Source of the DNA: a virus
Taxonomy: Duplodnaviria > Heunggongvirae > Uroviricota > Caudoviricetes
DNA length: 64,000 nt
Direction: 5' to 3' (one strand)
IMG/VR virus record: IMGVR_UViG_3300047323_000428
Coordinates: 21,208-85,207 of that record
Below are positions 5,447-24,907 of this stretch, piece after piece. Position 1 is the first letter of the stretch; every line of letters starts with the position of its first letter. The notes beneath the pieces were generated by a model. It was given only the letters and a program-made list of their open reading frames with translations. It was not told where the DNA came from and made no database searches. A program made the translations under genes and the position numbers.

Positions 5447-5758
5447 TTACACCGGCACCAGGAGCGCGTCTTCTTCGACACTGGTGACATACGCCGGCGC
5501 CTTCTTGCCCACGCTCACGTAACCGGCCCCTTCCGAGGTGATGCCGATCAGCACGTGGCGGCGGCCGCGCCGCTTTTCGCTGCCCACCTTCTCGATGAGC
5601 CCATGCTTGATGAGCGCGCGGATCGAAAACTGGATCGACGCCTTGGTCGTCTCGTAGTTGATGCGCTCGATGATCTGGTCGAGGTCGCACGCGGTTCCGT
5701 CCGGGTTGGCGGCGGCAATCACGTGCAAAAGCTCGATCTGCTTGACTGTCAGGTGCAT
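5447..5758 (-). CDS. MarR/winged-helix family transcriptional regulator
   Basis: Winged helix-turn-helix-like segment (LDQIIERINYETTKASIQFSIRALIKHGLIEKV...RRGRRHVLIGITSEG). Its ATG overlaps the stop of the upstream gene. Confidence 0.55.
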   Translation of the reverse strand: MHLTVKQIELLHVIAAANPDGTACDLDQIIERINYETTKASIQFSIRALIKHGLIEKVGSEKRRGRRHVLIGITSEGAGYVSVGKKAPAYVTSVEEDALLVPV

Positions 5759-6666
5759 CAGGCGGCTCCAACCGTGCGGTAGAGGGTCAAGGGTGCATCG
5801 ACCGGCTGGACGTCGAATTCGAGCAGGCTGATGCGCTCCGGCAGCTCACGGCCAAAGTCAGGGTTCTGGTAGACGCCGTAGAGCGGGCTTGCAAACACCA
5901 ACTGCTGGATTTGCTTGAGCAGCCACCCCGTGGCATACCCGTCGATGCGCTCCCGTGCGTCAAAGCGCTTGTTGCCCGACTTCTCGCGGCTGGAATTGCG
6001 GAAATAGAAGTCGCGCATCTCCTTCACGCACTTTTCCCGCACGGACGCCGGCATGGCCTCGAGCTCTTCCATCACGCCCACGTAGTCCGAGGGGATCGAA
6101 TCGAACCAGCGCCGGAAGAACACCAGGCCCGCCTCATACTTCTGCGACGGCTCGGGCTTCACAAAGCGCACGCCGGCCTTCCCTGCGAACGGGTTGAACT
6201 TGCTCATCGAGGACTGGAACTCCACGATGCGCGCGCCGCTCATGCGCATCATGAGGTTCTGCATCCGATACGCGATCCCGGCGCCGCGATACATGGTGTC
6301 GAGCACCAGGCGGCTGTTCGTGGTCGCGTTGTCGTTGATCCAGTTCAGGCGGTATTTGTTGATGAGCTTGGTGTCCATGCCGCCCTGGTTGGGACGTAGG
6401 TGCGTGAACGCCTTGTTGCGCCCGGAGGAGATCGCCGAAGACACCGTCATCACCCCGACGCCGATCGTCTGTCCGCGCAGCACGCAGCGGTAGAACTTGG
6501 GGCCAAACGGCAGGTTCTCCGCCTTGTAGTGGAGCTCGTGCAGCAGATCCCAGTCCGCCTTCGTGCCGCGCTCCACGTAAATCTCGGGCAGAAGCGACAG
6601 TGTGTGGTTGGTGGGCGCCGGCGTGCGCTCGATCAGCACATCGGCGTTGTCAGTGATGATGGTCAT
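5758..6666 (-). CDS. Putative GNAT-family acetyltransferase-like protein with a C-terminal extension
   Basis: GNAT motif-A-like segment LVLDTMYRGAGIAYRM. 302-aa ORF with a clean ATG. Confidence 0.35.
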   Translation of the reverse strand: MTIITDNADVLIERTPAPTNHTLSLLPEIYVERGTKADWDLLHELHYKAENLPFGPKFYRCVLRGQTIGVGVMTVSSAISSGRNKAFTHLRPNQGGMDTKLINKYRLNWINDNATTNSRLVLDTMYRGAGIAYRMQNLMMRMSGARIVEFQSSMSKFNPFAGKAGVRFVKPEPSQKYEAGLVFFRRWFDSIPSDYVGVMEELEAMPASVREKCVKEMRDFYFRNSSREKSGNKRFDARERIDGYATGWLLKQIQQLVFASPLYGVYQNPDFGRELPERISLLEFDVQPVDAPLTLYRTVGAA

Positions 6667-6669
6667 GAC

Positions 6670-7014
6670 TCAGTGCGCCTCCGAGCTCGAGCCGACGTTG
6701 GCCGTGTTGACGCACATGGTCGTCATGGTCGGGTCATAGCCGACGCCGACTGTGCCGCCAAGCGAGACGCCGGCCGGATTGGTGAGAAAGCCGCCCCGTG
6801 CGAGCCCGCCGCTAATGAGCGCATCGACGCTGACGCCGCGAAAGCCGTCATCTCGATCGACCGTCTTCGGCTTGTCGTTCTTCGGCTGAGCCTTGGCTGG
6901 CGCCTGACCGACGGACGCCAGCTTCAACTGCAGCTTTTCCTTGAGGTCGGCATCCATCAGCTCGTTGCCGTCGAGGAAGCCCTCGAGCCACATGCAGAAT
7001 TGTTCGGGCGTCAT
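6670..7014 (-). CDS. Hypothetical protein (114 aa, Gly-rich C-terminal half)
   Basis: ORF with an ATG at 7012-7014. Co-oriented with its neighbours. Confidence 0.45.
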   Translation of the reverse strand: MTPEQFCMWLEGFLDGNELMDADLKEKLQLKLASVGQAPAKAQPKNDKPKTVDRDDGFRGVSVDALISGGLARGGFLTNPAGVSLGGTVGVGYDPTMTTMCVNTANVGSSSEAH

Positions 7015-7157
7015 GCGGCCACCCCTCCCGTCGGCGGAAGGTCGTCGTCATCGAGCCGCTTGTGCCGCTTTTGCCACGAGCGTTCGAACACCGCGGCCGC
7101 CGCCAGCACGATCACGAGGATCGTGGGCAGCGCCACAACAAACGAGAGCGCGTCCAT
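7011..7157 (-). CDS. Small membrane protein (48 aa, one transmembrane helix)
   Basis: ATG at 7155-7157 immediately after the thioredoxin stop. Hydrophobic core FVVALPTILVIVLAAAAVF followed by a basic segment (not separately listed in the ORF table). Confidence 0.4.
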   Translation of the reverse strand: MDALSFVVALPTILVIVLAAAAVFERSWQKRHKRLDDDDLPPTGGVAA

Positions 7158-7158
7158 G

Positions 7159-7509
7159 TCAGAACTCCAGCTTGAGAGCGGATTCGGCCATCCCCAGGTC
7201 GCGGAAATACTCGCGCAGGGCTTCTTCGGTGCGATCGCCGTTGAAGCGCCCCTTGGGCACGCCCGCCTCGATCGTGATGACCGTGGGCACCGCACGCACG
7301 CCGAAAAGCGCTGCCAGCTCGCGCTCCTCGCCTGCGTCGACGATGGCGACCGTGAAGCCGTATTCGTCGGCGATCTTCGAGAGCTTGGGCTTGAGCAGCT
7401 TGCAGGGACCGCACCAGGATGCGGTGAAAGCGACCACGACCGCATCGTCGAGCGACTTCTCGGTCACGGCGATATCGAAGGTGTCGCGGGTCGGGTTAAT
7501 GGTCGGCAT
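7159..7509 (-). CDS. Thioredoxin
   Basis: WCGPCK active-site motif in a 116-aa thioredoxin fold. Confidence 0.85.
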   Translation of the reverse strand: MPTINPTRDTFDIAVTEKSLDDAVVVAFTASWCGPCKLLKPKLSKIADEYGFTVAIVDAGEERELAALFGVRAVPTVITIEAGVPKGRFNGDRTEEALREYFRDLGMAESALKLEF

Positions 7510-8155
7510 TTTTGAATCCTTCAGGTGCGTAGGCGATCTCGATCTTTTCCCGATATCGCTTGTTGATGAAGACGTCCGGCGCCAGGTCGTCGCGCAGATC
7601 GTCGTGTGTGGTTGCCACGATGAGCGTTGCGCCGACCTTTCGGGCGATGCGGCTCATGTTGTAGGCGATGACCTTGGCCGTCGTCCGGTCGACCACCGCC
7701 AGGAATTCGTCCGCAACCCAGACCTGAGCCTTCGACTCGATGAGCTTGGCAAGACGGAAGCGGTAGCGCTGGCCGTCCGACAGTTCACTGGGCTTGCGAA
7801 TGAAGAGGTAGGCGTCGTTCAGGCCGGCGATCGACAGCAGCCGCAGCGCGTCGTTGGTGTCGACACCGATCTGGTCGATGAGCGGGCAGTCGCGGAACTC
7901 GATGGCGTCGATATCGGCGACAACGAATCCGGCGTCAGCCATCATCGGCTTCAGTTCGCGCAGCACGGTTGACTTGCCCGAGCCGGACTGGCCCGTCACG
8001 TAGACGACGTCGCCTTGGTGGATATCGAGCGGCTGGTTGTCGAAGACGACGAACTCCTTGTCGTCCAGACCGAGCCCGAAGGCTTCGGCGACTTCCAGCA
8101 CGCGGTCGGAGCGCTCAACCGAGGCGGTGTAGCGCTTGTTGATGATGTAGGTCAT
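7496..8155 (-). CDS. Standalone ABC-type ATPase (no membrane domain)
   Basis: Walker A GQSGSGKST, signature LSDGQRYRFRLA, Walker B VWVADEF and H-loop TTHD. The true start is the ATG at 8153-8155 (M12 of the listed ORF). Confidence 0.6.
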   Translation of the reverse strand: MTYIINKRYTASVERSDRVLEVAEAFGLGLDDKEFVVFDNQPLDIHQGDVVYVTGQSGSGKSTVLRELKPMMADAGFVVADIDAIEFRDCPLIDQIGVDTNDALRLLSIAGLNDAYLFIRKPSELSDGQRYRFRLAKLIESKAQVWVADEFLAVVDRTTAKVIAYNMSRIARKVGATLIVATTHDDLRDDLAPDVFINKRYREKIEIAYAPEGFKNADH

Positions 8156-8157
8156 GC

Positions 8158-8676
8158 TCAGGCCGCCTGCTTGTTGATGCCGACCCACCAGGCCATCGCA
8201 GCCGGGTTGTCCTGCCAGAGCTGGCAGAGCCCGTGCGCGGTGCGCGTGGTGAAGTCCTCTTCGTCCACGTTCTCGCCCATCAGCTCGAAGTGCCAGTGAA
8301 TGGCGTGCAGCACCTCGTGGATGAAGGTGTCGGCGAGGTTCTGCGCGTTCTGGTCCGGGGCGAGCCGGATCGACTGGGAGATCGGGTTCATGTGGCCGAA
8401 AGCCATCATGGCCTGGCTGTCACCGCTCTCCTGCACCGACACGGAAAAGCGGAAGTTGCCGATCTTGAGCGACTTCGGGATGCCGTGATACGGGTCGAAG
8501 GGCTTGGCCTTCACTCCGCGTCGAGTAGCACCACCAGCAGCGCGAGCGCCAGGAGCTCGTCGTCGTTCAGACACACCAGCCTGTTCGGCTTCGCTGAAAG
8601 CCACGCCGCGAGGGCGATCGACGCTCCCACCAGCATCGCCACGATGATCGTCACTGTGTTCATTTCGCATAGTCAT
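8158..8676 (-). CDS. HExxH zinc-metallopeptidase-like protein
   Basis: FIHEVLHAIHWHFE motif (HExxH followed by an extra His). 172 aa. Confidence 0.4.
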   Translation of the reverse strand: MTMRNEHSDDHRGDAGGSVDRPRGVAFSEAEQAGVSERRRAPGARAAGGATRRGVKAKPFDPYHGIPKSLKIGNFRFSVSVQESGDSQAMMAFGHMNPISQSIRLAPDQNAQNLADTFIHEVLHAIHWHFELMGENVDEEDFTTRTAHGLCQLWQDNPAAMAWWVGINKQAA

Positions 8677-8687
8677 TTTTGAGTGTT
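8670..8687 (-). promoter_or_regulatory. Degenerate PDM copy (TAGTCATTTTTGAGTGTT) overlapping the start codon of 8158-8676
   Basis: Two mismatches to the consensus. The intergenic gap here is only 18 nt. Confidence 0.45.
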
Positions 8688-8694
8688 GGCCTGG

Positions 8695-9336
8695 TTACGC
8701 GCAGACGGCTTTGGCGTGAGCCACAAACGCGTCCGCACCCGTGAGTCCGGTTTGCTCTTCGATCAGCGCCATGAAGCGCGCCAGGTGCTTTTCATCTCGG
8801 CCGGCAACGGCTTTGAAGCCCAGCGCCTTCTCGAGCTTCACCTCACGCGCATCGGTCTTCTCGACGGTTTTGGCCGTCTCTGCCGCCTGCTCGCGCACTT
8901 CTGCGTCCAGATCCTCCACGAACGGAGCGTCGTTGATGATCGACAGGTCCGCGGTCATGAAGTCGAGCTCCTTCGGGTCGAAGATGCCTTCGAGGTCGAA
9001 GTCGAGGCTGGCAAGCTCTTCCTGCAGGATGCGCGCGTCGATCTCCGACAGGGCAACCCGGTTGTCCGCCAGGCGCAGCGCGCGTGCTTCCTCTTTGGAG
9101 AGGTCATCGCGCACGACCACCGGCACGTGGGTTTGTCCGAGCGAGAGTGCAGCCAGGCGCCGGCCGTGACCCGCGATGATGGTGCCGTCGGCTTCGGTGA
9201 CGATCGCCGTGTTCCAGCCGAAGGCCTTGATCGACTCGGCGATCTTCTTCACCTGTGCGTCGTCGTGGGTCTTCGCGTTCAGTTCGTAGGGCTTGAGCCA
9301 CTCGACGGGCTTGAGCACCGGTTTGAATTCGTTCAT
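8695..9336 (-). CDS. ParB-like nuclease domain protein (ParB/Srx fold)
   Basis: IVTEADGTIIAGHGRRLAA matches the ParB N-terminal GxxRxxA motif. ATG at 9334-9336 overlaps the upstream stop (ATGA). Confidence 0.6.
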   Translation of the reverse strand: MNEFKPVLKPVEWLKPYELNAKTHDDAQVKKIAESIKAFGWNTAIVTEADGTIIAGHGRRLAALSLGQTHVPVVVRDDLSKEEARALRLADNRVALSEIDARILQEELASLDFDLEGIFDPKELDFMTADLSIINDAPFVEDLDAEVREQAAETAKTVEKTDAREVKLEKALGFKAVAGRDEKHLARFMALIEEQTGLTGADAFVAHAKAVCA

Positions 9337-9551
9337 GCTTTTTCCTGATTCAGATAGGCGACCCACTGGCCTTTCGTCCAGCGACCCCAGTGCTTGGGCG
9401 TGAAAATCATTGCCTCGTAAGACGGCAGGCGCTTGAATTCGGTCGGCCAGAGCGTGCTGTCGTTGATGAAGGCGACTGACACGGTGTAGGCCATGTGGTT
9501 TCTAGCCAGCATGAGCATCACCAGGCCCATCAAAACCAAGCAGACGGTCAT
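9333..9551 (-). CDS. Small membrane protein (72 aa)
   Basis: N-terminal transmembrane helix MTVCLVLMGLVMLMLA. ATG at 9549-9551; the listed first codon is a GTG. Confidence 0.45.
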   Translation of the reverse strand: MTVCLVLMGLVMLMLARNHMAYTVSVAFINDSTLWPTEFKRLPSYEAMIFTPKHWGRWTKGQWVAYLNQEKA

Positions 9552-9745
9552 CACGCAGCCTCCAGTTCCAGCCAGATCGGTTCGTGTTCGTCGGCGCTCT
9601 TGTCGAGCGCCTGCAGCTTGCGCAGGTCTTCGTCGTAGCCGTCGTCGTCGCCGTTGTGCTCGTATTCCGAGCCCTCGTCACAGGAGCGGCAGGCGAACGG
9701 GTCGTATTCGAGGTTCACGCAGGTGCGGCAGAAGGGGTATTTCAT
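9551..9745 (-). CDS. Small Cys-rich zinc-ribbon protein (64 aa)
   Basis: CRTC...CRSC pairs followed by an acidic C-terminus. Confidence 0.45.
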   Translation of the reverse strand: MKYPFCRTCVNLEYDPFACRSCDEGSEYEHNGDDDGYDEDLRKLQALDKSADEHEPIWLELEAA

Positions 9746-9750
9746 GGCTT

Positions 9751-10161
9751 TCAGCAGGTGATCCAGTCGGTTGCCAGCAATTCCGCGTGCGTCGGCAGGA
9801 ACGTGCGCGGCTCGTCACCGTCGCGGAAGAGCACAAGCATTTCGCGGTGCAAGCTCACAGTGCTGAAGGTCCAGCCCACGCGCTTGATCGTCAGACCGCT
9901 CAGAACCGCGCGCAGCGCCATGCTGAAGTCCATCCCCACCGCAACCCTGTAGGAGCGCTCGAAGACGTCCTTGGGGCTCCACGAGACGTATCCCGCGCGC
10001 CCTTCGACGTTCGGTGCGCCGCCGTCAGCGTATTCAACGAGGTAGCCTTCGGTCGTGGCGGCTTCGTTCTCCGGCAACGCCCAGCCGCGCAGTTGGTTGT
10101 AGGCGCCGAGCGTCATGGGCTCTCCATAGACGACCTTGGTGCCGATGTAGCGTTGATTCAT
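9751..10161 (-). CDS. Hypothetical protein (136 aa)
   Basis: Clean ATG ORF co-oriented with its neighbours. Confidence 0.5.
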   Translation of the reverse strand: MNQRYIGTKVVYGEPMTLGAYNQLRGWALPENEAATTEGYLVEYADGGAPNVEGRAGYVSWSPKDVFERSYRVAVGMDFSMALRAVLSGLTIKRVGWTFSTVSLHREMLVLFRDGDEPRTFLPTHAELLATDWITC

Positions 10162-10163
10162 GG

Positions 10164-10811
10164 TTATTTCGTGAGGAGGTGAACGAGTGCGGCGCCGGCG
10201 TTCGAGAGCGAGTCGTCCTCGGTGAAGCGCTGGGCCTTCATGGTCTTTTCGATGAGGTCCGTGATGGTGCCGACGTCCTCGACGGGCACCTTGAACCGCA
10301 TGATCTGATGGGTCTGCACGACCGCTTCCTTGGGCAACGGGGTTGGGGCCGCGTCGTCATCCGGTATATCTAAATCATCCAGTTCTATATTTACGGATGA
10401 AAAGATTGAAGCGAAGTCCGCGTCCGTGTAGGGCAAGAACGTTGCGAGGTCTTCGGGCGCTCCCAGACCGTCAAGCAGTTCCGCCAGGCGTAGCGTGTCG
10501 TCGTTGCCGTAGCGGGCGTTGTCGACGAGGCCAATCTCCTTCGCTTTCTGGTCGTCGATGGCACCCACGTTCATCACGGGCACGCGGTCGAAGCCCAGAC
10601 GCATCGCAGCGTCGCGCCGATGAGCGCCACCGAGGATCTGATAGCTGCCGTCGGCAAGGGTGCGCACGATGATCGGCTTGAACATGCCGAGGCGCTTCAG
10701 AGACGCCTCGATCTTGGCCTCCTCTTCCGGGCTGCACACGTTGGTGTTCCAGGGATTGGGCTTGAGCGCGGAAGGCGCCAGTTCGAGCGTTTCGATGTGG
10801 GGCTTACCCAT
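10164..10811 (-). CDS. Second ParB-like nuclease domain protein
   Basis: ILGGAHRRDAAMRLG motif. The likely ATG at 10809-10811 is M4 of the listed ORF, which begins with a TTG. Confidence 0.55.
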   Translation of the reverse strand: MGKPHIETLELAPSALKPNPWNTNVCSPEEEAKIEASLKRLGMFKPIIVRTLADGSYQILGGAHRRDAAMRLGFDRVPVMNVGAIDDQKAKEIGLVDNARYGNDDTLRLAELLDGLGAPEDLATFLPYTDADFASIFSSVNIELDDLDIPDDDAAPTPLPKEAVVQTHQIMRFKVPVEDVGTITDLIEKTMKAQRFTEDDSLSNAGAALVHLLTK

Positions 10812-10833
10812 AGGTTTCAATGGCTTAGTTGGA

Positions 10834-10851
10834 TAGTCAGTTTTGACTGTT
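10834..10851 (-). promoter_or_regulatory. PDM consensus copy (TAGTCAGTTTTGACTGTT) in a divergent intergenic region
   Basis: 22 nt upstream of the ParB-like ATG on the minus strand and 30 nt upstream of the plus-strand helicase ATG. Confidence 0.85.
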
Positions 10852-10880
10852 GGCGCTTATACTACGCCTTACACAACAGG

Positions 10881-12452
10881 ATGGCAACTCAGGACATGGC
10901 AACGATCACGCTGGCATACAACGCAACCACCGCGAAGCTCGTGGAAACCGACCGCGCGCTCAAGCTGGAGGTGCAAAAGCTCGTTTCCTACCGGGTGAGC
11001 GGCGCGGAGAACACGCTGCCCTTCAAAACCGGTGGCTGGGACGGCCGCAGCTCCTTCTTCGACTTTCGCAAGGGCACCTTCCCCGCCGGCTTCGTGCATT
11101 TCGTGGCAGCGGGCCTGCGTCGGGCCGGTCACACGGTGCGCTTCGTGGCAAAGGAAGCCCCGGAGCCGCTCGGACCGCTCAACCCCAAGATCGACAGCTT
11201 CCCGGAAGACGCGCGCTACGACTACCAGATGGAGACGGTCAACCGGCTCGTGAAACACCGCCAGATCATCGCCCAGCTCGCCACGGGCGCGGGCAAGAGC
11301 CGGGTCGCACGCCTTGCCTTCGCGCGTATCCGCCGGCCGACGCTTTTTCTCACCACGCGCTCGATCCTCATGTATCAGATGAAGGACGCGTTCGAAGAGT
11401 TGGGCGTGAAGTGCTCGGTGCTGGGCGACGGACAGTTCGGAACGGTCACAGTCGGCGCCGACGGTGAAGAACGACACTCGGTGAAGATGATGAGCGTTGG
11501 CATGGTTCAGACGCTTGTTTCGCGTCTTGCTGAACCGTGTCCGGACGATGACGTCGACAAGCAAAACGAGCAAGTGCGAATCCGCAACAAGACGATCGCG
11601 CTCTTGGAGAAGTTCGAGTTCGTGATCGGTGAGGAGGCGCACGAGGCGTCGGGCAACAGCTACTACGAGATCCTGCGCCACTGCAAGAACGCGCACTACC
11701 GGCTCGCACTGACAGCCACGCCCTTCATGAAGGACGATGAAGAGTCGAACATGCGCTTGATGGCCGCGTTCGGTCCGATCGGCATCAAGGTCAGCGAGAA
11801 GATGCTGATCGAGCGCGGCATCTACGCCCGCCCCTTCTTCAAATACGTGGCGCTCAAGACCAAGCCGCCCAAGCTCTTTCGGGGCACCACGTGGCAGGCC
11901 GCCTACCGCCTGGGGATTGTCGACAATGCCGAGCGCAATGCCCATATCGTCTTCGAGGCCCGCCGCGGCGTCGCATTGAAGCAGCCGGTGATGATCCTCG
12001 TGCAGCAGACACGCCACGGTGAGCTTTTGCGGGAGATGCTGGCTGCGAAGGGCGTGAAGGTGGAGTTCCTGCAGGGCGAGAACAACGCGAAGGAGCGCAA
12101 AGCGGCGCTCGGGCGTCTTCGGGAGCGGGAAACCGAGGTGCTGATCGGCACGACCATCATGGACGTTGGGGTCGACGTGCCGGCCATCGGGCTGGTGATC
12201 CTCGCCGGTGGTGGGAAGGCGCAGGTGGCGCTGCGTCAGCGGATCGGCCGCGGTGCGCGCGAGAAGAAGAAAGGCCCGAACTGCTTTTTCGTGGTCGACT
12301 TCGATGACCCCTGGAACAGCCACACGAAGGAGCACGCTCTGGCTCGCCGTGCGATCGTGGAGTCGACGCCGGGCTTCGTCGAAAACATCCTCCCGCCGGG
12401 CCGCGACTTCGATTTCGTGGGGCTGGGTTTTGCGACTCGCAAGGCAGCGTGA
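10881..12452 (+). CDS. SF2 DEAD/DEAH-box (type III restriction Res-like / UvsW-like) DNA helicase
   Basis: Walker A QLATGAGKS, DEAH-like VIGEEAHE, motif III LTATP and motif VI QRIGRGAR. ATG at 10881; the listed N-terminal extension overlaps the ParB gene. Confidence 0.75.
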   Translation: MATQDMATITLAYNATTAKLVETDRALKLEVQKLVSYRVSGAENTLPFKTGGWDGRSSFFDFRKGTFPAGFVHFVAAGLRRAGHTVRFVAKEAPEPLGPLNPKIDSFPEDARYDYQMETVNRLVKHRQIIAQLATGAGKSRVARLAFARIRRPTLFLTTRSILMYQMKDAFEELGVKCSVLGDGQFGTVTVGADGEERHSVKMMSVGMVQTLVSRLAEPCPDDDVDKQNEQVRIRNKTIALLEKFEFVIGEEAHEASGNSYYEILRHCKNAHYRLALTATPFMKDDEESNMRLMAAFGPIGIKVSEKMLIERGIYARPFFKYVALKTKPPKLFRGTTWQAAYRLGIVDNAERNAHIVFEARRGVALKQPVMILVQQTRHGELLREMLAAKGVKVEFLQGENNAKERKAALGRLRERETEVLIGTTIMDVGVDVPAIGLVILAGGGKAQVALRQRIGRGAREKKKGPNCFFVVDFDDPWNSHTKEHALARRAIVESTPGFVENILPPGRDFDFVGLGFATRKAA

Positions 12453-12679: not shown

Positions 12680-12757
12680 TTTCCGACTGAAAAAGCCGAG
12701 ATTGAGGCGTTCCGGTCGCCAACCACACAGGCGCCTCTTCCCGGTTGCGGAACTTTA

Positions 12758-12789
12758 GCCCCGAGCTAACCACTCGGGGCTTTTTCTTT
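12758..12789 (+). terminator. Rho-independent terminator (GCCCCGAG-N7-CTCGGGGC followed by TTTTTCTTT)
   Basis: 8-bp GC-rich stem followed by a T-rich run on the plus strand, immediately after the helicase and small-membrane-protein unit. Confidence 0.8.
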
Positions 12790-12819
12790 GCACGTGAGTC
12801 TCCTGGACACACTATAATG
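12788..12819 (+). promoter_or_regulatory. Sigma70-like promoter (TTGCAC/CACGTG ... TATAAT)
   Basis: Perfect TATAAT at 12814-12819. TTGCAC sits 20 bp upstream; alternatively CACGTG sits 17 bp upstream. An AAGGAA ribosome-binding site precedes the ATG at 12855. The word TTTTTCTTTGCACGTG recurs at 16031-16046. Confidence 0.55.
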
Positions 12820-12854
12820 CGTGCAGTTATTATTTTTCACGTAAGGAATACAAC

Positions 12855-13969: not shown

Positions 13970-14216
13970 GATGCGGCACTCGCCGCCGGACCCAAACTAT
14001 AAGAACCCCGCTTACCCGTCCCCACTCCCAAGTTCCCAAGAACCCAGTCCCAAGGTGGAAGTGTGCGGTGGTGCGGTTGGTGTGTGGAAGTATAAGGAGC
14101 CGAGGCCTAGGCCTACCGGGAAATATAAGGGAGCGCTTTTGGCGGTCTGGAACGAGGAAGGGAGGGCCATCGCACCGCGCGAGATTTTCTAGGACTTCGC
14201 TCTCTCGCGGTTTCGA

Positions 14217-14402
14217 CTACTGCACGCGTCGCACGTTGACGCTTGCAATCGCGCGGTGCGTCGCATTGTCTTCAGCAAGCTTGCGAATCGCTGCGAGACG
14301 CTTTGCATAGTGACGTTCGTTCGATTCGATGAACGCTGCGAGCAAACCGAACATAACGACAGCGCTGATGATTGCGAAGAGTGAGAACGGTTCGAAGTGC
14401 AT
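14217..14402 (-). CDS. Small membrane protein (61 aa) inside the compositional island
   Basis: Transmembrane segment FSLFAIISAVVMFGLLAAFI. ATG with an AAGGGA ribosome-binding site. Codon usage is GCA/GAA/CGT-rich, unlike the rest of the window. Confidence 0.5.
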   Translation of the reverse strand: MHFEPFSLFAIISAVVMFGLLAAFIESNERHYAKRLAAIRKLAEDNATHRAIASVNVRRVQ

Positions 14403-14412
14403 GCTAGTCCCT

Positions 14413-14445
14413 TAGTCAGTTTTGAGTGTTTCACGTGAAACACTC
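14413..14445 (-). promoter_or_regulatory. PDM variant (TAGTCAGTTTTGAGTGTT) fused to a 22-bp perfect palindrome GAGTGTTTCACGTGAAACACTC
   Basis: The palindrome spans 14424-14445 around a CACGTG core, 10 nt upstream of the 14402 start codon. An identical palindrome occurs at 15104-15125. Confidence 0.8.
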
Positions 14446-14604
14446 GTTGCGGTGTGTAGCAACGTGCTACAGAAAGAATACTAACACGCGATTAAATCAG
14501 CGTGCAAGTATTTTGTGTCACGTATGCAAAAACTTTCTGTTCAAACGTGAAACCGGAACCGTGAACCGTGCGAGTAATGACGATATACATAGCTGAGAAG
14601 CGAT

Positions 14605-14619
14605 TAGAGACGTTTTGAG
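14605..14619. repeat. Direct repeat TAGAGACGTTTTGAG (second copy at 18886-18900)
   Basis: Exact 15-mer shared by two non-coding regions. A partial third copy lies near 14671. Confidence 0.6.
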
Positions 14620-14682
14620 ACGTTCGCACGGTGCGCTAGTGTGTTGACTAGCATTGAACCGTGCGAACGCGCTAGAGACGGT

Positions 14683-15075
14683 TTAAACGAGTGTGAGCGC
14701 AAACGGATAAAACGCTTTGAGCGCTTCGTCAAACTCAAGTTCGAGCGCAGACAATTCGACTTGATACGCTGCACGCATGCGCTCTTTCGAGAAAACGACG
14801 TCAGATTCATGCACGATGCACGCGGTATGCTCTGCGTTGTCATACGTGACAACGATCGCGTATTCATACGCACCGTTAGCAACGTAGAGCAATTCGACGC
14901 TCTGCGAGTAGTTGACGATACGAACGCGTTCGCTGAGTTCGTCTGCGTTGTCTAGCAAGTCATTTGCTGCGCTGAGTGCGAGCGGTGCAAAGACAACCGG
15001 TTTAACCGCTTGCGCTTCGTTGCGCGCGTCGCGTGCATCTGCGAGTTCTGCGAGTGCTTTTACGAGAGTGTTCAT
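14683..15075 (-). CDS. Hypothetical protein (130 aa) in the compositional island
   Basis: ATG at 15073-15075. The listed N-terminus MFHVKHS is merely the translation of the upstream palindrome. Codon usage is atypical. Confidence 0.5.
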   Translation of the reverse strand: MNTLVKALAELADARDARNEAQAVKPVVFAPLALSAANDLLDNADELSERVRIVNYSQSVELLYVANGAYEYAIVVTYDNAEHTACIVHESDVVFSKERMRAAYQVELSALELEFDEALKAFYPFALTLV

Positions 15076-15103
15076 TCTGTGCGTCTCTGAGTGTTGAGAA
15101 AAT

Positions 15104-15138
15104 GAGTGTTTCACGTGAAACACTCATCATTGACTGTT
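15104..15138 (-). promoter_or_regulatory. Second copy of the palindrome GAGTGTTTCACGTGAAACACTC plus a half-PDM (CATCATTGACTGTT)
   Basis: Perfect 22-bp palindrome at 15104-15125, about 30 nt upstream of the 15075 start codon. Confidence 0.8.
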
Positions 15139-15143
15139 ACGCG

Positions 15144-15989
15144 TTACGCGTTAAACATCGCTTGCAGCTTTTGCGCTGCTTTCGATTCCGTAAACGTCAT
15201 TGCATCGTCTTTTTTCGACTTCGCAACGTTGCAGACATTCAGAAAGCGCATTGCTTGTCGCGTGCTGCTTGCTTGCGTGCTTGCGGTTGACGGTGCGCAA
15301 TCTTTGTATGCGCGCACCGCTTCGGTTTGCATCGCTTCGTCAAACACGATTGCACGCGAGAGCGCACGTTGTGAACCGCGGTTCGAGAGCGAATGCAGCG
15401 AAACAAGATTCTGCATGATCGAGCGCGTGTAACCGTCAAAAACCGAAGTCATACCGGTTGCGAGTGCGAAAAGCGACTTGCGGATTTTTTGCGCTGCGTA
15501 AATCGCAACGTAATCGTGCGCTTTGTCGTCTGCGATTGCGTAAGCGGTTGCAAGCGATTCAAAATCAACTTCGAGTTCTACGCACTTTTCAATTGCGATC
15601 AGCGCATTGCGACCGCTCAGCGCGTTGAGTTCTGCGAGCATGTTCTTTGCGAAGTTCGCAGACGGTGCGTTGTCAATGCGCACTTGAACCGATTCGAGCA
15701 AGAGCGCTTGCGCTGCTTCTGCTTTTGCGCGCAACTCTTCTGCGCTCAGCACAACCGGTTGCGCTTCGTCTGCTTGCGCTTCGTTCGCTTCGGTTTCGAC
15801 TGCAAGCGTTTCGACTGCTTGCGCTTCGTCTGCGCTGAGCGCTTCGTCTGCTTGCGCTGCGAGTTCAGCGTTTTGCGCTGCGATCATTGCTGCTTCTGCT
15901 TGCGCTGCTTTCTCTGCTTTCGTGAGTCGCTTCGTCATTTTCGTTTCTCGCTTAGTGTGTTGTTTTGTTTTCGTCGCTGCACCGTGCAT
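15144..15989 (-). CDS. Hypothetical protein (about 280 aa; Ala/Glu/Gln-rich coiled-coil N-terminal part and a C-terminal domain) in the compositional island
   Basis: First ATG at 15987-15989; an alternative ATG lies at 15938. Strong GCA/GAA/CAA/AAA codon bias unlike the surrounding genome. Confidence 0.5.
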   Translation of the reverse strand: MHGAATKTKQHTKRETKMTKRLTKAEKAAQAEAAMIAAQNAELAAQADEALSADEAQAVETLAVETEANEAQADEAQPVVLSAEELRAKAEAAQALLLESVQVRIDNAPSANFAKNMLAELNALSGRNALIAIEKCVELEVDFESLATAYAIADDKAHDYVAIYAAQKIRKSLFALATGMTSVFDGYTRSIMQNLVSLHSLSNRGSQRALSRAIVFDEAMQTEAVRAYKDCAPSTASTQASSTRQAMRFLNVCNVAKSKKDDAMTFTESKAAQKLQAMFNA

Positions 15990-16000
15990 CGACAAGACGA

Positions 16001-16029
16001 ATTATGCACGTATCTTTTGCGACGTGCAA
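16001..16029 (-). promoter_or_regulatory. Sigma70-like promoter TTGCAC-N17-CATAAT driving gene 15144-15989
   Basis: On the minus strand the -35 element is TTGCAC (16024-16029), the spacer is 17 bp, and the -10 element is CATAAT (16001-06). This leaves a leader of about 10 nt. Confidence 0.6.
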
Positions 16030-16075
16030 CCTTTTTCTTGCACGTGTTTTAGAGTGCGTTCTCTAAAAATAATTG

Positions 16076-16105
16076 TTGCACGTTAGAAAAACGACGTGCT
16101 ATAGT
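16076..16105 (+). promoter_or_regulatory. Sigma70-like promoter TTGCAC-N18-TATAGT pointing into the T-depleted region
   Basis: The -35 element is at 16076-16081 and the -10 element at 16100-16105. A weaker upstream element (TTGCACGTG ... TAAAAAT, 16038-16070) repeats the TTTTTCTTGCACGTG word seen at the 12788 promoter. Confidence 0.55.
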
Positions 16106-16112
16106 TCTATCA

Positions 16113-16360
16113 CTGCAACGCGAAACGGAGTGACGAACGAAACGAACGAAAGCGAGAATCGACCGAAGACTGAAACCGAGCGACGCGAGACGCGACGCGA
16201 CGAACCGAAAAACGGTGCGCTCGAACCGAGCGACGGAAAAACGGAACGCGCGACGCGACGAAGCGAAAAACGGATCGCACGCAGTGAGACTGCGCGACAC
16301 GTGACGCTCGAACCGCGCGAGATGCGCGACGCACGCGCTGCGCCGGCGGCCGGCGCATGA
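16113..16360 (+). ncRNA. Candidate non-coding transcript with an extreme T-depleted composition
   Basis: About 250 nt with very few T on the plus strand (CGA/ACG/GAA-type repeats), directly downstream of the 16076-16105 promoter. It ends at the GCGCCGGCGGCCGGCGC palindrome (16340-16356). It contains no convincing ORF. Confidence 0.3.
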
Positions 16361-16396
16361 GGGAGACGGCCTAGGAGGTTTGCCTGCCGCCTTGGT

Positions 16397-16469
16397 CAAA
16401 ACTCCCTATCAGTGTCGGGCGAGGCTCCCGTTCAAATTCCCTATCAGTGTCGGCGACGGCTCCCGTTCC
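16397..16469. repeat. Two tandem iteron-like units (U1 16397-16433, U2 16434-16469)
   Basis: CAAAACTCCCTATCAGTGTCGGGCGAGGCTCCCGTTC and AAATTCCCTATCAGTGTCGGCGACGGCTCCCGTTCC. The conserved core is GTGTCGG-N6-GCTCCCGTTYC. Confidence 0.75.
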
Positions 16470-16554
16470 TTTCCATTCCACTCCACACCCCTAGGCCGAT
16501 CCCCTAGGCCGTGAGCAACAGCACCAAAAGGCGCCACACGGGCGCCCTTCTCCC

Positions 16555-17180: not shown

Positions 17181-17408
17181 CGCGTTTCTCGCGTTGTTTG
17201 AAAGTGATGCTATTGTCTCGACCCGCGAGAGGGACAACTGTGGCAATCGTTCGAGGCGGCTCGGGAGCTGGTCAGGCTCTCTCCCTACCGCGGCCTAGGC
17301 GTTTTCCCAAGGCCTTCCCCTGCTCTCCTCTCTCCTACCGGCCTAGGCCGTCTCCCATAGGCGGCTACCCAAGGGGATCGGCCTAAAAGGGGCCGAGGAC
17401 AATCCAAT

Positions 17409-17446
17409 CAAAACTCCGTAGGGTGTCGGCCGCGGCTCCCGTTTCC
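17409..17446. repeat. Iteron-like unit U3 (CAAAACTCCGTAGGGTGTCGGCCGCGGCTCCCGTTTCC)
   Basis: Same GTGTCGG...GCTCCCGTTTCC core as U1 and U2. Confidence 0.75.
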
Positions 17447-17483
17447 ACGGGGATCGGCCTAGGCCTCGCAGGTGCGCGGGGCG

Positions 17484-24472: not shown

Positions 24473-24907
24473 AGGTTAGTGTGTATCGCAGCAAGTGTTA
24501 GTCTGACGTGCGATTCGAGGACAGTGAACAGTCACCGCTGAGTCCCCCGAACCGCTTCGTTTCTTGCTGTATCGCGTTGTTTGCTGCGATGAGTGAATAT
24601 TAAAGACTGACTGTTGGAGTGTGGTCGGGCACCGGCGAGGAGTTGCCAGGCGGAAAACGCTGTATGAATGTGCATGCCGGCGTGCGCGAATAGCACGTGG
24701 CGCCAGGGGTGTCTGCGGGTATCGGCTAGGCCGGTGGCGGTGGACGTTGGGAGAGATGGAGAGGCCTAGGGGCTCGGCCTAGGCCACTCACCTAGGCCGT
24801 GGCGCCAGGGCGCGCGAGGAAGTGGCGAGGCGTTGGCTTGGGAGTGGCGAGGGACATGGCATGGCAGCGCCGTGGGGTAACGCCAACAGGTAAAGCGCCC
24901 GCACACC

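What the first reader, a model, noticed from the sequence alone, without database searches (positions are those of the whole stretch)
14190..16110. Compositionally foreign island with host-type promoters and repeated CACGTG-core palindromes
The segment has three genes: 14217-14402 (a small membrane protein), 14683-15075 and 15144-15989.
- They use GCA/GAA/CAA/AAA/CGT-type codons and are visibly less GC-rich at third positions than everything else in the window. This suggests recent horizontal acquisition.
- They are not preceded by clean copies of the dispersed motif.
- Instead they carry a perfect 22-bp palindrome, GAGTGTTTCACGTGAAACACTC, twice (14424-14445 and 15104-15125), each about 10 to 30 nt upstream of a start codon.
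- The 15144-15989 gene also has a canonical sigma70-like promoter (TTGCAC-N17-CATAAT at 16001-16029).
- The 15-mer TTTTTCTT(T)GCACGTG recurs at the 12788 promoter and again at 16031-16046.
- Half-sites (AAACGTGAAAC, CCGTGAACC) recur in the 14.45-14.68 kb gap.

This looks like an accessory cassette expressed by host RNA polymerase under a dimeric CACGTG-binding regulator. The proteins themselves have no recognisable function.
Basis: partly seen in the sequence, partly recalled or inferred. Interest (0 to 1): 0.65.

Follow-up and report, generated by a model that had tools for sequence, protein, structure and literature searches.

The report
Conserved CC/GG-free phage operon with parS
The "foreign island" is a conserved early-type operon of a large phage and phage-plasmid lineage. 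Its DNA is kept almost free of the dinucleotides CC and GG on both strands, and its palindromes are exact copies of the bacterial chromosome centromere site parS.

Summary
Window 14193-16341 is compositionally distinct. The defining property is not low GC3. It is near-total exclusion of CC/GG on both strands: 0 GGC/GCC against about 124 expected, 0 CCA/TGG, and 49 of 52 remaining CC/GG in WCCG/CGGW. This exclusion strips Gly, Pro and Trp from the proteins.

The unit is not a recent acquisition. Its main gene (264 aa, winged-helix fold, unknown family) sits at the same locus in every related contig examined. In each, the orthologous unit is CC/GG-depleted and its GC tracks the resident genome.

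Complete genomes of Rhizobium phage B1VFA and Pseudomonas phage nickie each contain exactly one CC/GG-free stretch (851 and 1137 bp). Each stretch encodes a protein with no Gly, Pro or Trp. Acinetobacter phage-plasmids show the same feature.

The zone always ends at a motif that occurs once in each genome or locus examined, CGAAGTCYTAGA.

The 22-bp palindromes contain the canonical chromosomal parS (TGTTTCACGTGAAACA). They occupy the position of a conserved intercistronic hairpin.

The promoters are sigma70-type and conserved. Why CC/GG is excluded is unknown. My best inference is immunity of this one unit to a DNA-level factor that needs GG/CC.

The parts
14193..16341 (.). CC/GG-excluded zone, comprising the whole unit: promoters, leaders, three genes, hairpins and the divergent T-poor region
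   Evidence: GGC/GCC-free gap 14166-16342, against a next-largest gap of 180 bp. 52 CC/GG are present, against 291 expected from the zone's own base composition; 49 of them are in WCCG/CGGW. The depletion is strand-symmetric.
14188..14199 (-). Boundary motif CGAAGTCCTAGA, occurring once in the window, at the edge of the zone
   Evidence: It occurs once in the 64-kb window, once in B1VFA (122 kb), once in nickie (112 kb) and once in each of the related loci L001, L003, L005, L006, L007, L044, L075 and L087. L008 has it as a palindromic pair at the edge, L009 has a variant (ATCCTAGA), and the L077 contig ends before the edge. The CC/GG-free zone always lies on its 5' side. GATGGCCCTSCCTTCC follows about 20-25 nt later in the beta group; B1VFA, L006 and L008 keep only the CCTTCC part.
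14217..14402 (-). Small membrane protein gene (61 aa). The only GGG in the zone is its Shine-Dalgarno sequence AAGGGA (14407-14412)
   Evidence: ORF with a hydrophobic helix. A small hydrophobic ORF follows the hairpin in L003, L005, L009, L075, L008 and the Acinetobacter plasmid.
14424..14445 (.). Palindrome copy 1; its core 14427-14442 is the canonical parS TGTTTCACGTGAAACA
   Evidence: Exact match. The identity of this sequence as the chromosomal parS is stated in PMC5450999. As RNA it folds into a 9-bp stem with an ACGU loop in the minimum-free-energy structure.
14478..14507 (-). Promoter-like TTGCAC-N18-TAGTAT (TG-extended -10) for the small gene, inside the 237-bp gap that also carries parS-like half-sites
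   Evidence: Read from the sequence. Same architecture as the promoters at 16029 and 16076.
14683..15075 (-). 130-aa acidic protein gene (pI 4.4), a variable cargo gene of the unit
   Evidence: Only 4 homologues were found, all on short contigs. The two whose DNA was read (L075, L077) have the order main gene-parS-130 aa gene (L075 continues into a small membrane-protein gene; the L077 contig ends before one) and are CC/GG-poor. Absent from L003, L005 and L009.
15104..15125 (.). Palindrome copy 2; its core 15107-15122 is the canonical parS. As RNA it is a 12-bp hairpin followed by UUUUCUC, just after the main gene's stop codon
   Evidence: A hairpin occupies the same position in all relatives. 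It is parS in L005, L009, L075, L077, L044 and L050, parS with one mismatch in L003, and an unrelated hairpin in L001, L006, L007, L008, nickie and B1VFA.
15144..15938 (-). Main gene: 264-aa protein with an N-terminal helical/low-complexity part and a C-terminal winged-helix domain; invariant TASTQASSTR motif
15939..16029 (-). Promoter TTGCAC-N17-CATAAT (16029-16001) and a roughly 55-nt leader without a Shine-Dalgarno sequence, with a 5' hairpin
   Evidence: Conserved in L001, L005, L009, L077, L007 and nickie, with variants in L003, L006 and L008. Leader fold.
16076..16341 (+). Divergent promoter TTGCAC-N17-TATAGT (16076-16104) and a T-poor (11% T) stretch of about 240 nt with three repeats at 29-nt spacing. 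Specific to this window; probably non-coding
   Evidence: (D1). No Rfam match. Absent from L003, L005 and L077. It obeys the same CC/GG rule.

Best explanation
The segment is a resident, lineage-defining transcription unit, not a foreign cassette.

**Shown**
- It is the window's copy of a sigma70-promoter-driven operon found near the UvsW-type helicase and the two ParB/Srx-domain genes (1.7 to about 10 kb away). It occurs in a lineage of roughly 100-160-kb siphophages and phage-plasmids: relatives of Rhizobium phage B1VFA, Pseudomonas Nickievirus and Acinetobacter phage-plasmids, with a terminase about 60% identical to SSU5.
- The operon encodes a basic winged-helix protein followed by a hairpin and a small membrane protein. 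Here it also carries a 130-aa acidic protein and a divergent T-poor transcript.
- Throughout the unit, coding and non-coding, the duplex DNA is kept nearly free of CC/GG. This causes the low GC3 and the loss of Gly, Pro and Trp.
- The zone ends at a motif that occurs once in each genome or locus examined, CGAAGTCYTAGA.
- The two palindromes contain the canonical chromosomal parS.

**Inferred**
- The parS sites load the host's chromosomal ParB onto the phage DNA. This could serve partition or positioning of a plasmid-like form, or act as a ParB roadblock controlling read-through into the downstream genes.
- In the RNA the same palindrome forms the intercistronic hairpin or attenuator that all relatives have at that place.
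- CC/GG exclusion is selected at the level of double-stranded DNA. It makes this one unit invisible to a factor that needs GG/CC to bind, cut or modify DNA, so the unit stays intact and expressed when other DNA is attacked or silenced. The factor could be a host defence, or the phage's own host-shutoff or silencing activity, possibly the winged-helix protein itself.
- The near-absolute exclusion (zero in 851 and 1137 bp in two complete genomes) argues for a regime where a single site is harmful, as with restriction sites.
For: - **Synteny and conservation.**
- **CC/GG depletion in every orthologous unit.** Observed/expected is 0.17-0.28 in the gene and 0.055 in the Acinetobacter plasmid. There is a single zero-CC/GG stretch in each of two complete genomes: B1VFA 42408-43259 (next largest gap 74 bp) and nickie 103937-105074 (next largest 145 bp).
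- **Beyond coding constraints.**
- **Strand symmetry.** GGC 13/GCC 10, TGG 12/CCA 15, CGG 82/CCG 83 on the sense strand across 8 units.
- **Resident, not imported.** Island GC tracks genome GC.
- **Proteins.** Those encoded in the B1VFA and nickie units have no Gly, Pro or Trp.
- **Boundary motif.** It occurs once in each genome or locus examined, with fixed polarity even where the gene is inverted, as in B1VFA.
- **parS.** Identity. Positional hairpin conservation.
- **Promoters.** Conservation.
- **Winged-helix fold and basic pI.**
- **Lineage.** (3.6-kb DTR; parA, parB and repC; a near-identical plasmid; Nickievirus has a long DTR).
Against: - No factor that reads GG/CC is identified, and nothing here was tested experimentally.
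- Another sigma70-type promoter (12788) drives genes of ordinary composition. Host-RNAP transcription alone therefore does not demand the exclusion.
- parS is present only in the Burkholderia-type subgroup. It is absent from B1VFA, nickie, L001 and L006-L008, so ParB loading cannot explain the CC/GG exclusion.
- No ParA or RepC is present in the window. Only one bacterial genome assembly, a MAG, carries the gene. A plasmid state is therefore unproven for this phage.
- The proteins of the B1VFA and nickie units are not demonstrably homologous to the window's protein.
- SSU5's positional analogue is only weakly depleted.
- The Burkholderia-type units tolerate WCCG/CGGW, and I cannot explain why.
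Confidence: 0.55

Rival explanations
1. First reader's model. A recently acquired accessory cassette, expressed by host RNA polymerase and controlled by a dedicated dimeric regulator that binds the CACGTG-core palindromes.
For: - Composition differs from the rest of the window.
- Host-type promoters are present.
- The palindromes are perfect and lie upstream of start codons.
- The 130-aa gene, the second palindrome and the T-poor region are variable between relatives.
Against: - The main and small genes are syntenic in all relatives, with the same compositional rule.
- Island GC tracks the resident genome.
- The island shares the genome's avoidance of GTAC.
- The palindrome core is the universal chromosomal parS. 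It is replaced by unrelated hairpins in other relatives.
Confidence: 0.05
2. The palindromes act only as RNA hairpins (terminator, attenuator or 3'-end stabiliser). Their identity with parS has no ParB-related function.
For: - Every relative has a strong hairpin right after the main gene's stop codon, with unrelated sequences in L001, L006, L007, L008, nickie and B1VFA. The last two are classic terminators with a U-tract.
- Copy 2 is followed by UUUUCUC.
- In L005 an alternative hairpin sequesters half of the parS.
Against: - A 16 of 16 match to parS is kept in at least six related units while the flanking arm bases vary (GAG..CTC against GAC..GTC).
- Chance expectation for a 16-mer is negligible.
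- Host ParB would bind such a site whether or not the phage 'intends' it.
- Copy 1 has no U-tract.
Confidence: 0.25
3. Leading-end pre-early unit, analogous to T5 first-step transfer. The once-per-genome motif marks a physical genome end or DTR boundary, and the CC/GG-free unit is the first DNA to enter. It must survive and be transcribed while a GG/CC-dependent nuclease, host or phage-induced, is active and before the rest of the genome enters.
For: - The lineage has long fixed DTRs: B1VFA 3605 bp and Nican01 'DTR (long)'.
- The motif occurs once in each genome or locus examined, exactly at the zone edge, with fixed polarity regardless of gene orientation.
- In B1VFA, motif position minus 3.6 kb falls in a 1.5-kb non-coding gap.
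- The promoter is strong, with A-rich sequence upstream.
- Absolute exclusion resembles restriction-site avoidance.
Against:
- The same unit exists in circular Acinetobacter plasmids.
- No candidate nuclease is identified.
- In metagenomic contigs the unit lies mid-contig, which is uninformative for collapsed DTRs.
Confidence: 0.2
4. Avoidance of a DNA modification. Virion DNA carries a modification in a GG/CC context, perhaps made by the conserved ParB/Srx-ABC ATPase-thioredoxin block. This unit is kept free of modifiable sites so that host RNA polymerase or ParB can use it.
For: - A conserved neighbouring block of two ParB/Srx-domain proteins, an ABC-type ATPase and thioredoxin is present in all relatives. 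From my own knowledge, ParB-like proteins occur in the Dnd and Dpd DNA-modification systems.
- The exclusion is strand-symmetric and confined to one unit.
Against: - CC/GG-containing palindromes (CCATGG 0/13, CCCGGG 0/11.5, and AGGCCT 0/26 in B1VFA) are avoided as strongly as CC/GG-free ones in the window and in B1VFA. GG/CC sites therefore do not look protected.
- No recognisable modification enzyme is present in the window.
Confidence: 0.1
5. No DNA-level selection. The pattern is a by-product of a local mutational bias (such as oxidation of GG or context-specific deamination in a heavily transcribed region), or of RNA- or translation-level selection (unstructured mRNA, no SD-like GG, no slow Gly or Pro codons).
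For: - GCA/TGC and CAA/TTG are enriched, as expected if GG changes to TG and CC to CA.
- The zone is coextensive with transcription units.
- The leaders lack a Shine-Dalgarno sequence.
Against: - The depletion is equal on both strands.
- It extends into promoters and non-transcribed spacers and ends within a few bases of a fixed motif.
- ORFs stay intact and conserved.
- Ala uses GCA and GCG rather than the GCT a C-to-T process would give.
- CG and GC are about 2-fold enriched and TA is depleted.
- A graded benefit would not give zero in 851-1137 bp.
Confidence: 0.07

Closest known systems
Chromosomal parS / ParB (Spo0J) centromere
   Same: The core of both palindromes is exactly the 16-bp TGTTTCACGTGAAACA shared by chromosomal Par systems, including Burkholderia chromosome 1 (PMC5450999). 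It is a dimer-binding palindrome.
   Different: It lies inside a phage operon between genes, not near an origin or a parAB operon. No ParA and no HTH-type ParB is seen in the window. It doubles as the operon's intercistronic hairpin. It is present in only one subgroup of the lineage.
Phage T5 first-step-transfer (pre-early) region, and the restriction-site-free leading DNA of T5 and T7 (from my own knowledge of the literature)
   Same: A short unit with strong host-type promoters in a large siphophage with a long DTR. Its sequence is purged of sites that a DNA-cutting activity would need. It is expected to be expressed first.
   Different: What is excluded here is a dinucleotide on both strands, not specific 4-8-bp sites. 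The terminal location is unproven. The unit also exists in circular plasmid forms.
Dinucleotide or motif suppression to evade a sensor: CpG suppression against ZAP in vertebrate RNA viruses, PAM depletion, restriction-site avoidance (from my own knowledge)
   Same: Systematic avoidance of a very short motif beyond coding needs, conserved in relatives. The same genome also shows classical site avoidance (GTAC 0 of 79 expected).
   Different: The avoidance is confined to one transcription unit of about 1-2 kb rather than spread across the genome. It is near-absolute, strong enough to remove three amino acids from the proteins, and no cognate factor is known.
Morons or horizontally acquired accessory islands in phage genomes
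   Same: Own promoter and terminator, atypical composition, variable cargo (the 130-aa gene, the T-poor transcript).
   Different: The core genes are syntenic and ancient in the lineage. Composition tracks the resident genome. The atypical composition follows a rule (no CC/GG) rather than reflecting a donor.
MarR/ArsR-type winged-helix DNA-binding proteins
   Different: No sequence-family membership (no Pfam or PDB sequence match). There is an extra N-terminal helical domain. The only full-length structural matches are uncharacterised phage proteins.

Membership tests
Chromosomal-type parS site | 16-bp palindrome matching TGTTNCACGTGAAACA | tested here: met
   Two exact copies at 14427-14442 and 15107-15122. 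No other site in the window has 2 or fewer mismatches. Consensus taken from PMC5450999.
Chromosomal-type parS site | Bound by ParB; nucleates CTP-dependent spreading | not testable with these tools
   Needs ChIP-seq or EMSA with the host's ParB.
Chromosomal-type parS site | Part of a ParABS partition locus (cognate parA and parB nearby, or a demonstrated segregation role) | tested here: not met
   No ParA or RepC homologue in the window. The two ParB_N-domain proteins lack a detectable HTH or parS-binding domain.
Horizontally acquired island / moron | Absent or variable at the locus in close relatives | tested here: not met
   The main gene, the hairpin and a following small membrane-protein gene are present near the helicase block in the related loci examined (L006 has no called small gene); the main gene is also in the Acinetobacter plasmids. 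Only the 130-aa gene, the second parS and the T-poor region vary.
Horizontally acquired island / moron | Composition reflects a donor genome rather than the resident one | tested here: not met
   Island GC is 30, 38, 45 and 49-52% in genomes of 47, 52, 58 and 56-61% GC. The same CC/GG rule holds everywhere.
Intrinsic terminator / intercistronic hairpin | Stable stem-loop followed by a U-tract at the end of a cistron, conserved in position | tested here: inconclusive
   A 12-bp stem (whole 66-nt fold -19.6 kcal/mol) followed by UUUUCUC for copy 2. No U-tract for copy 1. A hairpin is present at this position in all relatives, and nickie and B1VFA have classic terminators there. The simple terminator scan did not call either copy.
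Motif avoidance under selection (restriction-site-avoidance type) | Depletion on both strands, beyond amino-acid and codon constraints, conserved in relatives | tested here: met
Motif avoidance under selection (restriction-site-avoidance type) | A known cognate factor that recognises the avoided motif | not testable with these tools
   None identified. No PADLOC hits for the island proteins. The literature searches found nothing.
SSU5/B1VFA/Nickievirus-related long-DTR siphophage and phage-plasmid lineage | Shared core genes and gene order (TerL, portal, UvsW-type helicase, two ParB/Srx genes, ABC ATPases, CobS/CobT, RNR, large DNA polymerase, sigma factor) | tested here: met
   TerL is 58-62% identical to those of RHEph10, B1VFA, nickie and SSU5. 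Gene content. Order compared.
SSU5/B1VFA/Nickievirus-related long-DTR siphophage and phage-plasmid lineage | Plasmid-maintenance genes or a plasmid state; long direct terminal repeats | tested here: inconclusive
   No ParA or RepC in this 64-kb window. Only one MAG hit in GTDB genomes. Relatives do exist as plasmids, in Acinetobacter and as pRlX6. DTRs cannot be seen in a window.
Winged-helix (MarR/ArsR-like) DNA-binding proteins | Winged-helix fold | tested here: met
Winged-helix (MarR/ArsR-like) DNA-binding proteins | Sequence-family membership and demonstrated operator binding | tested here: not met
   No Pfam family above threshold. No PDB sequence match. Binding was not tested.

The most novel reading that the evidence does not exclude
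The unit is a 'stealth operon'. Across alpha-, beta- and gammaproteobacterial phages and phage-plasmids, one transcription unit per genome is written in a CC/GG-free DNA alphabet, at the cost of Gly, Pro and Trp, and is delimited by a motif that occurs once in each genome or locus examined. On this reading, an as-yet-unknown DNA-targeting activity needs a GG/CC step. That activity is either a widespread host defence or the phage's own host-DNA destruction or silencing machinery, possibly the encoded winged-helix protein. The unit is the first or only part of the genome that must function while the activity is on. In the Burkholderia-type branch the unit has additionally captured the host centromere parS to recruit host ParB.
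Probability: 0.3. Interest if true: 0.9.

Novelty: categorically new. Interest (0 to 1): 0.8.

Why it matters
A conserved stretch of 0.85-2.2 kb from which one dinucleotide is banned on both strands is a very unusual signature. The ban is strong enough that cultured phages B1VFA and nickie encode 184-199-aa proteins with no glycine, proline or tryptophan. I found no description of it in the literature searched.

Such an absolute, local and lineage-wide constraint implies a molecular reader of GG/CC steps that is still unknown. The constraint gives a direct experimental handle on it: recode the unit and see what breaks.

Two further results follow.
- A phage-borne exact copy of the host chromosomal centromere (parS) inside an operon makes hijacking of ParB by phages or phage-plasmids testable.
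- A simple computable marker (the longest CC/GG-free run plus the CGAAGTCYTAGA boundary) can identify this lineage and orient its genomes.

Tried and rejected
- **Recent HGT.** Rejected because of synteny and the shared compositional rule in relatives.
- **Codon or tRNA adaptation.** There are no tRNAs in the window. The rule also holds out of frame, in non-coding DNA and on the antisense strand.
- **RNA-level avoidance of an endoribonuclease motif** (for example UGG or GGAG). Rejected because the depletion is strand-symmetric.
- **CRISPR PAM avoidance** (I-F CC, Cas9 NGG). Rejected by reasoning from my own knowledge, not by a tool test: CCG/CGG are tolerated in the Burkholderia-type units, and immunity of a single 2-kb stretch would not protect the genome.
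- **A GG/CC-context DNA modification that protects against restriction.** The in-silico test gave no support.
- **General restriction-site avoidance as the cause.** The island is full of CGCG, GCGC, ACGT, TGCA and TCGA.
- **DNA-mimic (Ocr-like) protein.** Most homologues are basic, with pI about 9.
- **Known RNA family in the T-poor region or leaders.** None found.
- **Defence-system membership.** None found.
- **tblastn of the main protein against 50,697 phage records.** No match.
- **Homology of the B1VFA_061, nickie gp019 and SSU5_120 proteins to the window's protein.** Not demonstrable.
- **The 22-bp palindrome as a phage-specific marker.** Rejected. About 60 unrelated 53%-GC contigs carry it without any CC/GG depletion.
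- **My first promoter pattern** used a wrong spacer and found only chance hits.

Full report
**1. The observation**

The three minus-strand ORFs, the duplicated 22-bp palindrome, the promoter-like elements and the compositional shift are all present.

- GC3 of the three genes is 0.53-0.65, against 0.81 for 19 long reference genes of the window.
- The third gene most likely starts at ATG 15938. This gives 264 aa, identical to a database protein, and the start aligns with all homologues.
- CACGTG is not enriched in the window overall (25 found, 22 expected). Four of the 25 lie in the island: two in the palindromes, one in a TTGCACGTG promoter-like element and one in the T-poor stretch.

**2. What the composition really is**

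K-mer counts show that the island is defined by exclusion of the CC/GG dinucleotide on both strands.

- In 14190-16340 there are 0 GGC/GCC (57.7 per kb elsewhere), 0 CCA/TGG, 1 CCC/GGG and 3 AGG/CCT.
- The GGC/GCC-free gap is 14166-16342 (2176 bp). The next largest in 64 kb is 180 bp.
- Of the 52 remaining CC/GG, 49 are in the context WCCG/CGGW. The exceptions are the Shine-Dalgarno sequence AAGGGA of the small gene and one site at 16030.
- Codon consequences: 0 of 95 Ala codons are GCC (35% elsewhere), Gly is only GGT and Pro only CCG.
- Gly, Pro and Trp fall to 1.3%, 1.5% and 0% of residues, against 7.1%, 3.9% and 1.3% elsewhere.
- For the main gene the observed 19 CC+GG compare with 100+-7 when the same protein is back-translated with the genome's codon usage (lowest of 2000: 71). 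Uniform synonymous choice gives 71+-7. The theoretical minimum is 7.
- Non-coding parts of the island have 23 against 97 expected.
- CG and GC dinucleotides are about 2-fold enriched and TA is depleted.
- The depletion is the same on the sense and antisense strands, so it acts on the duplex, not on the mRNA.

**3. It is not a recent acquisition**

- The main protein matches two PHROG families of unknown function. It has 23 close homologues (39-100% identity) and 248 cluster representatives in a 1.84-billion-protein library.
- On long related contigs the gene lies at the same locus as here: near the UvsW-type helicase, a YAcAr gene, an Arc-like gene, two ParB/Srx-domain genes, ABC-type ATPases and thioredoxin.
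- In every relative examined, the orthologous unit is CC/GG-depleted (observed/expected 0.17-0.28). Its GC is 10-17 points below the genome but tracks it: 30% in a 47% genome and 52% in a 61% genome.
- One contig (L008) has an extra, non-depleted paralogue elsewhere, as well as the depleted orthologue at the conserved position.
- Variable parts are the 130-aa gene with its own promoter, the second palindrome and the divergent T-poor region. These are shared only with a few close relatives on short contigs, and they obey the same CC/GG rule.

**4. Breadth of the phenomenon**

- The window's large terminase is 58-62% identical to those of Rhizobium phages RHEph10 and B1VFA, Pseudomonas phages nickie and ZY21, and the Salmonella phage-plasmid SSU5. 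Gene content matches that lineage.
- B1VFA is a siphophage with a 3.6-kb direct terminal repeat and parA, parB and repC genes, and a Rhizobium plasmid is 93-94.5% identical to it (PMC12509600). Nickievirus Nican01 has a long DTR (PMC11256456).
- The complete B1VFA genome (122,345 bp, 59% GC) contains exactly one stretch with no CC or GG at all: 851 bp at 42408-43259, with the next largest gap 74 bp. It covers gene B1VFA_061, a promoter-like TTGAAC-N16-TAAAGT that I read from the sequence, and its terminator.
- The complete nickie genome (112,225 bp, 57% GC) has exactly one such stretch: 1137 bp at 103937-105074, with the next largest 145 bp. It contains TTGCAC-N17-TAGAAT, gp019, a terminator and an unannotated ORF.
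- Both encoded proteins (199 and 184 aa) contain no Gly, Pro or Trp. They are not demonstrably homologous to the window's protein.
- True homologues occur in 153 Acinetobacter plasmids of about 100-133 kb. In one of them (41% GC) the gene has 3 CC/GG against 54 expected and sits beside the same helicase-ParB/Srx-ABC-thioredoxin block.
- SSU5's positional analogue is only weakly depleted.
- I found no paper describing this feature.

**5. A boundary motif found once per genome**

- The 12-mer CGAAGTCYTAGA occurs once in the window (14199->14188, minus strand), once in B1VFA and once in nickie. It also occurs once in each of eight related loci and as a palindromic pair at the edge in L008. One locus (L009) has the variant ATCCTAGA.
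- It is always exactly at one edge of the CC/GG-free zone, and the zone always lies on its 5' side. This holds even in B1VFA, where the gene inside the zone is inverted and the motif falls in the promoter spacer.
- About 20-25 nt beyond it comes a conserved CC-rich block, GATGGCCCTSCCTTCC, in the beta group (B1VFA, L006 and L008 keep only the CCTTCC part). Copies of a CCTTATA-type dispersed motif follow.
- In several relatives the motif sits in a hairpin whose stem sequence differs between relatives.
- It could be a genome terminus or DTR boundary, an operator (perhaps for the winged-helix protein, whose recognition-helix motif TASTQASSTR is invariant), or an insulator. I could not distinguish these.

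**6. The palindromes**

- Their 16-bp core, TGTTTCACGTGAAACA, is exactly the parS sequence shared by chromosomal ParABS systems, including the main chromosome of Burkholderia (PMC5450999).
- Exact or near-exact parS is found at the same place in six or seven related units. The flanking arm bases differ among them (GAG..CTC against GAC..GTC).
- The 22-mer also occurs in about 60 unrelated 53%-GC contigs with ordinary composition, as expected for a generic chromosomal site.
- The position immediately after the main gene's stop codon holds a strong hairpin in every relative. The sequences are unrelated in L001, L006-L008, nickie and B1VFA, and the window's copies fold as 9-bp (copy 1) and 12-bp (copy 2) RNA hairpins.
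- I therefore read the palindrome as a dual element: the operon's intercistronic hairpin, which in the Burkholderia-type branch has become a host ParB loading site.
- The phage's own two ParB_N-domain proteins have GxxRRxAA-type motifs that I read in their translations, but no detectable HTH. No ParA or RepC is in the window.
- parS cannot explain the CC/GG exclusion, because B1VFA and nickie lack parS.

**7. Promoters and the protein**

- TTGCAC-N17-CATAAT (16029->16001) with A-rich upstream sequence is conserved in relatives. It is followed by a 5' hairpin and, in the high-GC branch, a leader without a Shine-Dalgarno sequence.
- Two more promoters of the same TG-extended type lie at 14507 (minus strand) and 16076 (plus strand). 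The simple consensus scan misses them because TTGCAC scores only 3 of 6 against TTGACA.
- Most homologues are basic.

**8. Mechanism**

Shown:
- a resident, conserved, host-promoter-driven unit;
- duplex-level CC/GG exclusion;
- a sharp boundary at a motif found once per genome or locus;
- canonical parS.

Inferred:
- The exclusion is maintained by selection against even single GG/CC steps. This implies a factor that needs such a step to bind, cut or modify DNA, and from which this unit must be exempt.
- I rank a generic 'immunity to a GG/CC reader' first.
- Its most concrete form is a T5-like first-entering pre-early unit next to a terminus. I give that about 0.2.
- A modification-avoidance variant is weakened by the equal avoidance of CC/GG-containing restriction palindromes elsewhere in the genome.
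- Mutational or RNA-level explanations fit poorly, given the strand symmetry, the sharp boundary, the intact conserved ORFs and the absolute zeros.
- Why the Burkholderia-type units tolerate WCCG/CGGW is unexplained.

**9. Verdict**

What is there is more interesting than proposed: a lineage-wide CC/GG-free operon with a boundary motif found once per genome, here carrying two copies of the host centromere site.

Noticed in passing
whole window (and B1VFA, L078-L081): GTAC is completely absent from the 64-kb window (0 against 79 expected) and from the 122-kb B1VFA genome (0 against 161). AAGCTT, TGATCA, CAGCTG, GTGCAC, CCATGG and CCCGGG are also at or near zero outside the island. This is classical restriction-site avoidance. 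The single AAGCTT of the window lies inside the island, at about 14276-14281.
   Followed up: partly
window 121, 14104-14113, 16368-16510, 17292-17465, 19125, 22956, 24763-24798: The 8-mer CCTAGGCC (often as GGCCTAGGCC) occurs 18 times against 0.6 expected. The copies cluster in non-coding stretches, including both flanks of the island.
   Followed up: partly
window 16399-16468 (also L077:1-30, L003:9590-9640, L005:9510-9560): Two tandem 35-bp repeats containing CCCTATCAGTGTCGG...GGCTCCCGTTC lie just beyond the island. Relatives have the same element as a GTGTCGG-N-CCGACAC inverted repeat, followed by arrays of GAGGAGCGTCCTCATCC repeats. Function unknown.
   Followed up: no
window 14040-14140 minus strand; L003:11040-11110; L084:5130-5220: A dispersed CCTTATA/CCTTACA-type motif (for example CTCCTTATACTTCC, CCCTTATATTTCCC) follows the boundary motif and precedes the neighbouring genes in all relatives. 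It may be the promoter type read with the phage-encoded sigma factor (61198-61845).
   Followed up: no
window 16105-16341 (+): Downstream of a divergent sigma70-like promoter lies a stretch with only 11% T and three repeats at 29-nt spacing (GAAAAACGG recurring). Long ORFs appear in all frames simply because stop codons are rare. There is no Rfam match, and the stretch is absent from relatives. It is possibly a small purine-rich RNA.
   Followed up: partly
window 5758-10820 and 10620-12452; L003, L006, L007, L087: A strictly conserved block is present in all lineage members: UvsW-type helicase divergent from two ParB/Srx-domain genes, one or two ABC-type ATPases and a thioredoxin (the thioredoxin was seen in the related loci; I did not check for it in the window). 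Its function is unknown. It resembles the protein sets of DNA-modification systems.
   Followed up: partly
window 12757-12833: A clean intrinsic terminator (AGCCCCGAG...CTCGGGGCT followed by a T-run) is directly followed by TTGCAC-N17-TATAAT. This promoter drives an Arc-like gene and a YAcAr (SLOG) gene of ordinary composition. A host-type promoter by itself therefore does not go with CC/GG exclusion.
   Followed up: partly
L003:5716-6348; L001:2155-3191; L008:2306-2926: Relatives carry toxin-antitoxin pairs in the small-gene region next to the unit: MazE/PemK in L003 and Phd/YoeB in L001. L008 carries a second, non-depleted paralogue of the main gene (GC 61% in a 52% genome).
   Followed up: no
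L005 / L086 (NZ_JASGFN010000003.1): The only hit among 185,579 species-representative genomes is a 450-kb contig of a Paraburkholderia MAG. That is far longer than the phage genomes of this lineage, so it is either an integrated or cointegrated copy or an assembly chimera.
   Followed up: no
L085:11905-11945 (SSU5 about 61,920): SSU5 has one GTCTTAGA in the 50-kb half I scanned (50-100 kb), inside a perfect inverted repeat (GTGTCTT-AGA-AAGACAC). It lies in a non-coding gap near its replication helicase gene, not next to the positional analogue of the unit.
   Followed up: no
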